Shown here in pieces: positions 30,001-33,000 of a stretch of 64,000 nucleotides of DNA. Made by a program: the position numbers. Positions within the stretch are counted from its first letter, which is position 1, and every line of letters begins with the position of its first letter. The stretch is taken from assembly GCF_055900595.2 (NCBI RefSeq), contig NZ_CM148325.1; one strand, written 5' to 3'.

Positions 30001-33000
30001 CGAGTGAAGCTTTATGTCGTGTTCTGGCGTGTCCTGTGTTAGTTAGAACACGCCATCGATGGTCAGCAGGTTCATATTGCACCAGAGCGGATACAGCGTG
30101 GTGTTATGTCAGGGCTGCGCTGTTTACGTGAACACGTGGCGTACGGCCCCGCTTCCTGGCCCTGCTGGGCATGGATCACGGCGCGACAAAGGGGCGACTA
30201 CCTGGCAGCATGTGTCCAGCCGGTTCACAATCTGGTGAAGGTTCCTTACGCTCATGGGCCATACTGATAATTCACCAGGCCATCATTTCCAGAGGAAGAC
30301 GCCGTTTGCGTAGCGTGACAGTGTCGGACTCTTCAGGGCTGTGGGTAATCAGTTCCGGGGCAAGATAGTCGCAGAGGGTTACGCAGAGAATAGTAACTGG
30401 ACACTGGATCGATCAACCGATCCTTAACTGAGCGGCATGACAGCTTTCTGATGGTTTTTTTTTGATAATCTTCACATTGTGCTTCTTTTCTGTTGGATAA
30501 TCTTTGTACTTGATGGTGTACTAGGTATCCCATTATGCAGTTAAGTGAAGGTGATTAAAAATGCAATGTGAATTTAAAGGGGTCATATCAGCATTACCCA
30601 CTCCTTATGACCAATCCCAGCAAATCGATATGGAGAGTCTTCGAAAACTGATCCGTTTTAATATCGAACAAAATATTAAGGGATTGTATGTTGGAGGCTC
30701 TACTGGAGAAGCATTTCTTCAGAATGTTGCAGAGCGAGAAAAAATTCTTGAAACAGTAGCCGATGAATCAGATGGAAGACTGACACTTATAGCGCATGTG
30801 GGCGGAATCAGTACGGCAGAAAGCGAGGTACTTGCAAAAGCTGCAAAAAAATACGGATATCATGCTATATCTGCTGTTACTCCATTTTATTATCCTTTTT
30901 CATTTGAAGAGCATTGTATTCATTACAGGAAGATTATTGATTCTGCAGATGGACTTCCGATGGTAGTTTATAATATACCGGCTCTTAGCGGAGTGCGTTT
31001 TTCTTTAGATCAGATAAATGAGCTTGTCACAATACCCAGGGTTTGTGCATTAAAACAGACATCCGGTGATTTATTCCAGATGGAACAAATCAAAAGGAAT
31101 CATCCAGAGCTTGTGTTATATAATGGTTACGATGAAATATTTGCATCAGGGTTAATTGCAGGTGCAGATGGGGGAATCGGTAGTACATATAATATAATGG
31201 GGTGGCGTTATCTTGAAATATTTGAAGCAGTCAAAAACAATGATGTGATTAAGGCGAAGGAAATGCAAGTAGCCTGTAACCAGGTTATTGACACTCTTAT
31301 TCAGAGTGGTGTCCTGGCAGGTATAAAAACTCTTCTTTACTATATGGGGATTATAAATACTCCTGTATGCAGAAGTCCTTTTTCTCCGGTAAAGGAAAAG
31401 AATCTGGATGTATTATCAAAACTTGCAGAGCGACTGTTCGAAGAACATGACAGAAACAAAAAAATGAAAATAATCTGAATAATTGCAAGATTGTTATATA
31501 GGTGAAAATGAATGATAACACTGGCTGTTGATATAGGAGGAACGAAAATTTCAGCGGCGTTGATATCTGATGACGGTTCATTTTTGCTGAAAAAACAGAT
31601 ATCAACACCTCATGAAAGATGTCCTGACGAAATGACAGGGGCTTTACGTCTACTGGTTTCTGAAATGAAGGGAACAGCGGAGCGATTTGCAGTAGCATCA
31701 ACAGGGATTATTAATAATGGAGTATTGACAGCTCTGAATCCAGACAATCTTGGAGGGCTGAAAGAGTATCCTCTGAAAAATATAATGGAAGATATAACTG
31801 GTTTAAATGGAAGTGTGATAAATGATGCCCAGGCAGCCGCATGGGCAGAATATACAGTTTTGCCGAAAGAAATTTGTGATATGGTTTTTATAACCGTTTC
31901 TACGGGGGTTGGAGGGGGAATTGTAGTTAACAGAAAATTATTAACAGGTGTTTCTGGATTAGCCGGACATGTTGGGCATATATTGTCCGGAGTAACGGAT
32001 ACAGAATGTGGATGTGGTCGTCGGGGATGCGTTGAAGCGGTTTCATCTGGTCGGGCCATCATGGGGGCAGCAAAAAATAAACTTGCAGGATATAGCACCA
32101 AATATATTTTTGAATTAGCGAGACAGGGATATAAGGAAGCAGAATTTTTGACAGAGCGTTCTGCCAGTACTATTGCTGAATTAATAGTAAGTTTAAAATT
32201 ACTGCTTGATTGTCAGGTTGTTGTTGTCGGAGGAAGTGTTGGACTTGCTGATGGGTATGTTCAGAAAGTGTCGAAACATCTTTCCATATATTCTGAAATT
32301 TGTAATGTAATGCTGTTTCCGGCATATTTCAGAAGTGACTCTGGTCTTATTGGTGCAACTCTTTGGGACCGGGATTGTATTACTTAAAGTAATACTCCAG
32401 TGTATTATAAATCCGCTATTATTGTGAGGTTTAATATGGACTCCTGTATTCAGAAAAAGCAGGTTTGGTATAAGCATCTTTCACCCAGACAGTGGAAGAT
32501 ATTCGGTGCGGCATGGACAGGTTATTTACTTGATGGTTTTGATTTCGTTCTGATATCTCTGGTTCTTACAGAGGTTCAGCATGAATTCGGCTTGACGACA
32601 ATAGAAGCGGCAAGCCTTATTTCCGCTGCTTTTATTTCTCGATGGTTTGGGGGGCTTGCTATTGGCGCTTTATCGGACAAGATGGGGCGCAGGATGGCAA
32701 TGGTTTTAAGTATAGTGCTATTCTCTCTCGGAACCCTTGCCTGTGGTCTGGCTCCTGGATATGCAGTGATGTTTATTGCTCGCATTGTTATTGGGCTTGG
32801 TATGGCAGGTGAATATGGCTCAAGTGTAACATATGTTATCGAAAGCTGGCCTGTTCATCTCAGAAACAAGGCAAGTGGTTTTTTAATTTCTGGATTTTCT
32901 ATTGGGGGAGGTTTAGCTGCACAGGTTTATAGCATTGTAGTACCACTATGGGGCTGGCGTTCTCTTTTCTTTGTCGGCATGCTTCCAATATTATTTGCTT

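What the first reader, a model, noticed from the sequence alone, without database searches (positions are those of the whole stretch)
30511..30530. Candidate NanR-type operator upstream of the nan-like operon
About 30 nt upstream of the lyase start the sequence ggtgtactaggtatc contains two GGTATA-like hexamers (ggtgta, ggtatc). Chromosomal NanR binds repeats of GGTATA, and this locus encodes its own NanR-like regulator, so the locus may be self-regulated through a related but non-identical operator.
Basis: inference. Interest (0 to 1): 0.4.

Follow-up and report, generated by a model that had tools for sequence, protein, structure and literature searches.

The report
NanR operator of the nan-9 sialic-acid operon
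The two GGTATA-like hexamers are real and are almost certainly the repressor-binding site that switches an accessory sialic-acid gene cluster (nan-9) of extraintestinal pathogenic E. coli, because the same 15 bases are kept unchanged in four diverged copies of the cluster and sit exactly where the classical NanR operator sits in E. coli K-12.

Summary
In detail: GGTGTActaGGTATC lies at 30515-30529, 31 nt before the lyase ATG (30561). Sequence alone does not separate it from chance (5 matches with ≤2 mismatches in the window, 2.9 expected). Comparison does.

The locus is the published nan-9 cluster of the ExPEC pheV island. Three other diverged nan-9-type loci were found: an E. coli contig, an IncF plasmid and the Proteus faecis chromosome, with NanR 71-80% identical. 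All carry the invariant block TGGTGTACTAGGTAT[C/A]C before the lyase gene. Pairwise identity is 89-100% in the block and 32-54% in the rest of the promoter.

In all four, the block starts 37 nt after a CRP-like box (window 30461-30476). That spacing is 36-39 nt in 29 canonical nanA promoters, including K-12. The site is therefore the positional homologue of repeats 1-2 of the characterised (GGTATA)3 NanR operator, and it overlaps a predicted extended -10.

The island NanR keeps 8 of 9 proposed DNA-contact residues. Only the wing residue differs (N89 to K), and it does so in all four nan-9-type regulators.

This is a two-repeat variant NanR operator that I did not find described in the literature I could search. 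Binding is untested, and which NanR binds it is unknown. Interest is modest.

The parts
30514..30532 (+). Predicted NanR operator of the nan-9 lyase operon: TGGTGTActaGGTATCccA (hexamers 30515-20 and 30524-29).
   Evidence: Exact 15-mer GGTGTACTAGGTAT shared by window, L033/L034, L037/L038 and Proteus faecis L006. Block identity 89-100% against 32-54% for the rest of the promoter. Aligns to repeats 1-2 of the K-12 nanA operator.
30461..30476 (+). CRP-like box TTTGAtaatctTCACA (9/10 to TGTGA-N6-TCACA).
   Evidence: Second conserved block in the four-locus alignment. Lies 37 nt before the operator in all four nan-9-type loci and 36-39 nt before it in 29 canonical nanA promoters. Binding by CRP is inferred, not tested.
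30494..30499 (+). Inferred -35-like hexamer TGGATA (4/6 to TTGACA), 17 nt before the -10.
   Evidence: A TGG is conserved at this offset in all four loci. TGGAT occurs at about the same offset in the K-12 nanX and nanC promoters. This is inference; the strict consensus scan found no promoter.
30514..30522 (+). Inferred extended -10 TGgTGTACT, lying inside the operator. Predicted +1 at ~30529-30530, which puts the CRP-box centre (30468.5) at about -61.
   Evidence: Positional homologue of TGgTATAAC in K-12 nanA. Inference only; no transcription-start data were available.
30548..30553 (+). Shine-Dalgarno-like AAGGTG, 7 nt before the lyase ATG.
   Evidence: Read directly from the sequence.
30561..31478 (+). 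N-acetylneuraminate lyase paralogue, first gene of the operon.
   Evidence: DHDPS family, E = 3.8e-94. 66% identical to K-12 NanA. RefSeq annotation in Nissle 1917.
31512..37605 (+). Rest of the operon: ROK ManNAc kinase (31512-32387), MFS transporter (32436-33908), alpha/beta hydrolase (33912-34742), NanC/KdgM-like porin (34788-35498), NanM-like epimerase (35511-36620), second alpha/beta hydrolase (36670-37605).
   Evidence: Pfam hits and RefSeq annotation of the identical Nissle 1917 region. Intergenic gaps are small, so one transcription unit is inferred.
37641..38375 (-). NanR paralogue (GntR/FadR type, 244 aa), the presumed cognate repressor.
   Evidence: GntR + FCD domains. 52% identical to K-12 NanR and 80% to Proteus faecis NanR. 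8 of 9 proposed DNA-contact residues and all 4 Zn ligands are conserved.
38475..39461 (+). Sialate O-acetylesterase (NanS-like), divergent from nanR.
   Evidence: SASA domain and RefSeq annotation. No operator-like block in its upstream region is conserved across the four loci.
30046..30440 (-). IS4-family transposase pseudogene and terminal inverted repeat. This marks the upstream limit of native nan-9 DNA.
   Evidence: RefSeq pseudogene annotation. Positions 30402-30440 align to the IS4 end of K-12 and PEC403.

Best explanation
Window 30514-30532 is the operator of the nan-9 lyase operon. It is a two-repeat variant (GGTGTA-cta-GGTATC) of the NanR operator.

It lies inside a CRP-dependent promoter whose layout matches the classical nanA promoter: a CRP box at about -61, a weak -35, and an extended -10 (TGgTGTACT) embedded in the first repeat.

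Without sialic acid, dimers of the NanR encoded at 37641-38375 (and possibly the chromosomal NanR) occupy the repeats and exclude RNA polymerase. When a sialic acid binds the Zn-containing FCD domain, NanR leaves the DNA, and cAMP-CRP then drives transcription of the lyase to second-hydrolase genes.

Shown here: the sequence, its positional homology to the K-12 operator, its invariance across four diverged loci, and conservation of the regulator's DNA-reading helices.

Inferred: binding, which NanR binds, the inducer, the transcription start, and the role of CRP.
For: 1. The site exists and has the repeat-1/2 spacing of K-12.
2. All three K-12 operators and 27 other enterobacterial nanA promoters carry cTGGTATAACAGGTATAAAGGT (two with an ATA spacer), so this is where NanR operators sit.
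3. An ungapped alignment of the island, L033, L037, Proteus L006 and K-12 promoters shows only two conserved blocks, the CRP-like box and the operator.
4. Within the four nan-9-type promoters, pairwise identity is 89-100% in the operator and 32-54% elsewhere.
5. The CRP-box-to-operator gap is 37 nt in all four, and 36-39 nt in the 29 canonical promoters.
6. The locus encodes a NanR whose alpha2/alpha3 residues proposed to contact DNA (S33, E58, R59, G68, R69, S71, R73, E91 in K-12 numbering) are identical to K-12, and whose Zn ligands are conserved.
7. Two GGTATA repeats suffice for high-affinity binding by K-12 NanR (KD 25 nM; PMC8012715).
8. A much more distant NanR locus (43% identity) has TGGTATACTAGCTAT before its first transport gene, so TGGT-TA-N3-G-TAT is a family-wide motif.
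Against: - No binding, footprint, reporter or transcription-start data exist for this promoter. Neither paper describing the cluster (PMC10088187, PMC11537424) mentions an operator, and a search for 'nan-9' found nothing further.
- On sequence alone the match to GGTATAN3GGTATA is at chance level for 64 kb.
- The predicted -10 (TGTACT) lacks the usual A at position 2, and the consensus promoter scan found nothing.
- There is no third repeat. The N-terminal extension that mediates cooperativity in K-12 NanR is shorter and not alignable (24 against 32 residues), so stoichiometry may differ.
- The conserved block could owe part of its conservation to core-promoter function.
Confidence: 0.8

Rival explanations
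1. The conserved block is only the core promoter (extended -10 plus start region) of the lyase operon and is not bound by any NanR. Regulation would be by CRP alone or by read-through from the IS elements.
For: The block contains the best extended -10 candidate, TGgTGTACT (inference). The cluster sits directly downstream of IS4/IS66 remnants that could supply outward transcription.
Against: Nineteen invariant bases are far more than a -10 element needs. The homologous block in K-12 is the experimentally defined NanR operator (PMC8012715). A NanR gene is kept in all four loci. The IS elements are absent from the L033, L037 and Proteus promoters, which keep the same block.
Confidence: 0.07
2. 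It is a functional operator, but in ExPEC it is controlled mainly by the chromosomal NanR, making nan-9 a fourth operon of the classical sialoregulon. The island NanR would be redundant or would act elsewhere.
For: The recognition-helix residues are identical in the two NanRs. Both hexamers keep the GGT core, which is invariant in all canonical repeats, and the degenerate K-12 nanC third repeat GGTGCA also has G at position 4. Almost all E. coli carry chromosomal nanR (PMC10088187).
Against: Repeats 1-2 are exact GGTATA-aca/ata-GGTATA in all 30 canonical operators examined. That argues the canonical NanR is intolerant of changes there. The variant operator travels with its own NanR clade, marked by K at position 89, across four loci. 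At the window's chance rate of ~2.9 two-mismatch sites per 64 kb, I estimate roughly 200 such sites per genome, so two mismatches are unlikely to be neutral for the canonical protein.
Confidence: 0.1
3. It is a chance resemblance: two GGTATA-like hexamers with no regulatory role.
For: 5 matches against 2.9 expected in the window at ≤2 mismatches.
Against: Exact conservation in four diverged loci, at a fixed distance from a conserved CRP-like box, at the position of the K-12 operator.
Confidence: 0.02

Closest known systems
E. coli K-12 NanR operator, (GGTATA)3, at nanATEK-yhcH, nanCMS and nanXY (Kalivoda et al. 2003/2013, recalled from memory; Horne et al. 2021, PMC8012715)
   Same: Direct GGTATA-type hexamers with a 3-nt spacer, preceded by T (TGGT). 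Same distance (37 nt) from a CRP-like box. Overlaps the promoter of a lyase-first nan operon. Adjacent FadR-type NanR with the same DNA-reading helices and Zn/effector site.
   Different: Two repeats, not three. Hexamers are GGTGTA and GGTATC, and the spacer is CTA, not ACA. It is followed by CC(C/T)A rather than AAGGTA. The cognate NanR has K instead of N at wing position 89, Y for I87, S for R94, and a shorter, unrelated N-terminal extension. In Proteus the site reads as a near-palindrome, TGGTGTAC-TAG-GTATACCA.
nan-9 cluster / 'nan module' of GI-pheV (Tiwari et al. 2023, PMC10088187; PLoS Genet 2024, PMC11537424)
   Same: This is that locus. It is 99.9-100% identical to Nissle 1917, EC958 (ST131) and ATCC 25922, with the same nine genes and flanking IS elements.
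   Different: Those papers describe gene content, host association, a deletion phenotype and conservation. Neither mentions an operator, GGTATA or regulation of the cluster.
FadR-type palindromic operators (TGGT...ACCA arms)
   Same: The Proteus version, TGGTGTACTAGGTATACCA, has 14 of 19 self-complementary positions with TGGT/ACCA ends, as expected for a FadR-subfamily dimer (sequence; count by inspection).
   Different: In the E. coli island the right arm is degraded (CCCA), and the K-12 operator is not palindromic. Horne et al. showed asymmetric binding to direct repeats.

Membership tests
NanR (FadR-subfamily GntR) operator of the enterobacterial sialoregulon | Two or more GGTATA hexamers in direct repeat, separated by 2-3 nt. 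| tested here: met
   GGTGTA-cta-GGTATC, each 5/6, with a 3-nt spacer. K-12 NanR needs at least two closely spaced repeats (PMC8012715).
NanR (FadR-subfamily GntR) operator of the enterobacterial sialoregulon | Three repeats with exact GGTATA in repeats 1 and 2. | tested here: not met
   All 30 canonical operators have exact repeats 1-2. Here both are degenerate, and the third-repeat position (ATTATG / AGTGCA / ATCATA / AATTTT) is not conserved. This is therefore a variant, not a canonical (GGTATA)3 site.
NanR (FadR-subfamily GntR) operator of the enterobacterial sialoregulon | Located in the promoter of a nan operon, at the canonical place relative to the CRP site. | tested here: met
   37 nt downstream of a 9/10 CRP-like box, against 36-39 nt in 29 canonical nanA promoters. 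Ungapped alignment to K-12.
NanR (FadR-subfamily GntR) operator of the enterobacterial sialoregulon | A cognate NanR with conserved DNA-contact residues is encoded in the genome. | tested here: met
   The island NanR keeps 8 of the 9 residues listed by Horne et al.; N89 is K.
NanR (FadR-subfamily GntR) operator of the enterobacterial sialoregulon | Conserved in orthologous promoters (phylogenetic footprint). | tested here: met
   Invariant in four loci with NanR 71-80% identical, while the promoter background is 32-54% identical.
NanR (FadR-subfamily GntR) operator of the enterobacterial sialoregulon | Bound by NanR in vitro or in vivo and released by Neu5Ac. | not testable with these tools
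   No experimental data were found for this promoter.
Class I CRP-dependent promoter | TGTGA-N6-TCACA box centred near -61.5 from the transcription start. | tested here: inconclusive
   The box TTTGAtaatctTCACA is conserved in position. The start site is only predicted (~30529-30530), and the strict sigma-70 scan found no promoter.
nan-9 gene cluster of ExPEC GI-pheV | Nine genes (nanA, K, T, C, M, R, S homologues plus two esterase-like hydrolases), no nanE, IS-flanked, in B2/D lineages. | tested here: met
   Gene content. 99.9-100% identity to Nissle 1917, EC958 and ATCC 25922. Published description.

The most novel reading that the evidence does not exclude
ExPEC carrying nan-9 run two parallel NanR/operator pairs in one cell, partly or fully insulated from each other.

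- The chromosomal pair is NanR (wing Asn89, 32-residue cooperative N-terminus) on (GGTATA)3.
- The island pair is NanR (wing Lys, short N-terminus) on the two-repeat, quasi-palindromic TGGTGTACTAGGTATC.

Four effector-contact positions differ in the island protein: N165P, R203K, H214N and S218T. It may therefore sense a different sialic acid, such as Neu5Gc or an O-acetylated form. If insulation is incomplete, the second NanR would also reach the nanC/fimB operator and so affect type 1 fimbrial switching.
Probability: 0.3. Interest if true: 0.55.

Novelty: new member of a known kind. Interest (0 to 1): 0.33.

Why it matters
[quoted passage not shown] How it is switched on has not been described in the literature I could search.

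Locating its operator, CRP box and likely promoter gives a ~120-bp fragment and specific bases to mutate. It also shows that the regulatory design is inherited from the classical nanA promoter, not supplied by the flanking IS elements.

The pairing of an operator variant with one wing-residue change (N89K) offers a simple natural test of how NanR reads DNA. The 3.9 Å cryo-EM structure could not resolve that question. It also raises the issue of cross-talk between two NanR paralogues in important pathogen lineages.

Tried and rejected
- Sequence statistics alone were at chance level, so the case rests on comparison.
- The strict sigma-70 scan of 29900-30700 found no promoter or terminator. The promoter model is therefore built by homology only.
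- The scan of species-representative genomes with the lyase returned two nan-9 contigs (in MAGs labelled Segatella copri and Bacillota, identical to the E. coli island sequence, so not independent), Proteus faecis, and 26 canonical nanA loci. No intermediate relatives turned up.
- Metagenome contigs for the closest NanR relatives (P0002 at 90%, P0004 at 76%) were too short to reach the lyase promoter. L039 (lyase 87%) has a promoter identical to the island's. P0012 is a 407-aa lyase in the canonical sspB-nanR-nanA context, probably a chimeric assembly.
- I looked for a second operator in the nanR/esterase divergent region. No block is conserved in all four loci.
- A second weak match, TGGTGTAGGAGGGATC at 35606-35621 (3 mismatches), lies inside the NanM-like gene. 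I treated it as probable chance.
- The Kalivoda 2003 and 2013 papers (footprint, start site, CRP) are not held in the library. Statements about them rest on Horne 2021, Vimr 2013 and my memory.
- I did not build a position weight matrix from canonical operators. Repeats 1-2 are invariant there, so any mismatch would be scored arbitrarily.
- The plasmid search with the island NanR found only the already sampled IncF-type variant (75-76%) and distant homologues.

Full report
**What is there.** The window reads ...tacttgaTGGTGTActaGGTATCccattatgcagttaagtgaaggtgattaaaaATG.
- The two hexamers are at 30515-30520 (GGTGTA) and 30524-30529 (GGTATC), separated by 3 nt.
- The lyase ORF starts at 30561.
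- As a bare pattern it is unremarkable. GGTATAN3GGTATA with up to two mismatches occurs 5 times in the 64-kb window, against 2.9 expected from shuffles.

**Context.** The region is 99.9-100% identical to a chromosomal island of E. coli Nissle 1917, EC958 (ST131), ATCC 25922 and 688 complete genomes in all.
- Gene order is: Ag43 ... IS66 copies, an IS4-family transposase pseudogene, then lyase, ROK kinase, MFS transporter, alpha/beta hydrolase, KdgM/NanC-like porin, NanM-like epimerase, a second alpha/beta hydrolase, a divergent NanR, a SASA esterase, IS3 and iha.
- This is the published 'nan-9' cluster (PMC10088187), also called the 'nan module' of GI-pheV (PMC11537424).
- Those papers report human-host association, a growth lag of the deletion mutant on Neu5Ac and Neu5Gc, and 99.6-99.7% conservation. 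Neither mentions an operator, and a search for 'nan-9' found no further paper.
- Upstream, positions 30402-30440 align to the terminal inverted repeat of IS4. Only about 120 bp of native DNA therefore precede the lyase gene.

**The reference operator.**
- In K-12, nanA is preceded by cTGGTATAacaGGTATAaaGGTATA.
- The nanX and nanC operators share cTGGTATAacaGGTATAaaGGT.
- The same block, with exact repeats 1-2, precedes nanA in 26 other enterobacterial species, in L040 and in L042.
- Horne et al. (PMC8012715) showed that NanR dimers bind these repeats and that one repeat is insufficient. Two repeats give KD ≈ 25 nM, and Neu5Ac weakens binding. They propose nine DNA-contact residues.

**Decisive comparison.** One of the lyase homologues, in Proteus faecis (L006), is preceded not by the canonical block but by ttGGTGTACTAGGTATAcca. 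This is the island's variant.
- The Proteus locus is syntenic with nan-9: lyase, MFS, hydrolase, porin, NanM, hydrolase, divergent NanR, esterase. It lacks only the kinase.
- Its NanR is 80% identical to the island's. K-12 NanR is 52% identical.
- Protein searches found two further E. coli versions: L033/L034 (NanR 71%) and L037/L038 on an IncF plasmid (NanR 75%). About 18 E. coli plasmids, including isolates from mouse and pig, carry this plasmid type.
- In both of these the esterase gene sits upstream of the lyase gene.
- All four promoters contain the exact 15-mer GGTGTACTAGGTAT.
- Anchored without gaps, pairwise identity is 89-100% across the 19-bp block, 62-94% in a second block, and 32-54% elsewhere.
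- The second block is a CRP-like box: island TTTGAtaatctTCACA at 30461-30476, L033 CGTGAaaaagaTCACA, Proteus TTTGAaaaagaTCACA.
- The gap between this box and the T of TGGT is 37 nt in all four loci. In 29 canonical nanA promoters, including K-12, it is 36-39 nt, mostly 37 or 38.
- A five-way alignment with K-12 needs no gap between the two blocks.
- The candidate is therefore the positional homologue of repeats 1-2 of the characterised operator, kept under strong constraint while the surrounding promoter diverged.

**The regulator.**
- The island NanR has GntR and FCD domains.
- At the nine residues proposed to contact DNA it matches K-12 at eight. The exception is the wing residue Asn89, which is Lys.
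- All four nan-9-type NanRs have Lys there, plus Tyr for Ile87 and Ser for Arg94.
- NanRs from loci with the canonical operator (K-12, L040, L042), and the closely K-12-like Edwardsiella hoshinae NanR (P0006, whose operator I did not examine), have Asn.
- The N-terminal extension that mediates cooperativity in K-12 (32 residues) is 24 residues here and not alignable.
- All four Zn ligands and 6 of 10 polar Neu5Ac contacts are identical. The differences are N165P, R203K, H214N and S218T. A sialic acid effector is likely, but its identity is open.

**Mechanism (inferred).**
- By homology with K-12's TGgTATAAC, the first repeat contains an extended -10, TGgTGTACT (30514-30522).
- TGGATA (30494-30499) lies 17 nt upstream as a weak -35. 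TGGAT recurs at about the same offset in the K-12 nanX and nanC promoters.
- The predicted start at ~30529-30530 puts the CRP box centre at about -61, a class I position.
- NanR bound at 30514-30532 would exclude RNA polymerase. Sialic acid would release it, and cAMP-CRP would activate transcription.
- The strict consensus scan found no promoter, and the -10 lacks A at position 2. The start site needs mapping.

**What is different from K-12.**
- There are two repeats, not three. The third-repeat position is unconserved.
- The hexamers and the spacer differ from K-12.
- The block is followed by a conserved CC(C/T)A.
- In Proteus the block reads as a near-palindrome, TGGTGTAC-TAG-GTATACCA.
- A distant NanR locus (43% identity) has TGGTATACTAGCTAT before its first transport gene. 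This suggests that TGGT-TA-CTAG-TAT is an old form of the motif.

**What was not found.**
- No operator-like block is conserved in the nanR/esterase intergenic region of the four loci. Autoregulation of nanR and NanR control of the esterase are therefore not supported.
- There is no second good copy of the motif in the window. One 3-mismatch match lies inside the NanM-like gene.

**Verdict.** The element is an expected kind of thing, a repressor's operator in front of its operon, in a known cluster. It is a distinct variant that I did not find described, and it is paired with a distinct NanR clade. Binding, the identity of the binding NanR, the inducer and the start site remain experimental questions.

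Noticed in passing
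window 30046-30462; L032 7091-8647 (K-12): An IS4-family remnant ends ~73 bp upstream of the nan-9 operator. In K-12 the single IS4 copy ends ~108 bp upstream of the NanR operator of nanX. The ~22 bp just outside the IS4 end in the island (acagctttctgatggttttttttt) also resemble the DNA flanking an unrelated IS4 copy in strain PEC403. This may reflect IS4 target preference or coincidence.
   Followed up: partly
window 35606-35621: TGGTGTAGGAGGGATC, a 3-mismatch match to the 16-mer operator, lies ~100 nt inside the NanM-like gene. About 0.19 such matches are expected in the window, so it is probably chance. I did not check it in the other loci.
   Followed up: no
L033 7746-9057; L037/L038 8714-10000: In the other two E. 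coli variants of the cluster (L037/L038 is on an IncF plasmid), the NanS-like esterase gene sits between nanR and the lyase gene, and the second hydrolase lies beyond nanR. The CRP-box/operator promoter is kept between the esterase and lyase genes, so the esterase has a separate promoter.
   Followed up: partly
L003, L004: Two species-representative MAGs, labelled Segatella copri and 'Bacillota bacterium', contain contigs 99-100% identical to this E. coli island (IS remnant plus lyase). These are almost certainly binning contamination. L004 carries an A-to-G change at the base equivalent to 30513, just outside the operator.
   Followed up: no
L040 8816-16699: Some E. coli carry yet another accessory nan cluster (nanR of 231 aa, lyase, MFS, nanE, ROK kinase, porin, NanM, esterase). 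It has a fully canonical (GGTATA)3 operator and a perfect-half-site CRP box, TGTGAtgtttgtTACA, and its NanR keeps Asn at position 89.
   Followed up: partly
window 26462-29900: Nested or duplicated IS66-family elements (tnpA, tnpB, one intact and one truncated tnpC) lie immediately upstream of the IS4 remnant. Tiwari et al. call the upstream element IS682.
   Followed up: no
window 32400-32436: The MFS transporter ORF can start at GTG 32400 (502 aa) or, as RefSeq annotates it, at ATG 32436 (490 aa). Similar start ambiguities exist for the porin (34758 or 34788) and the NanM-like gene (35502 or 35511).
   Followed up: no
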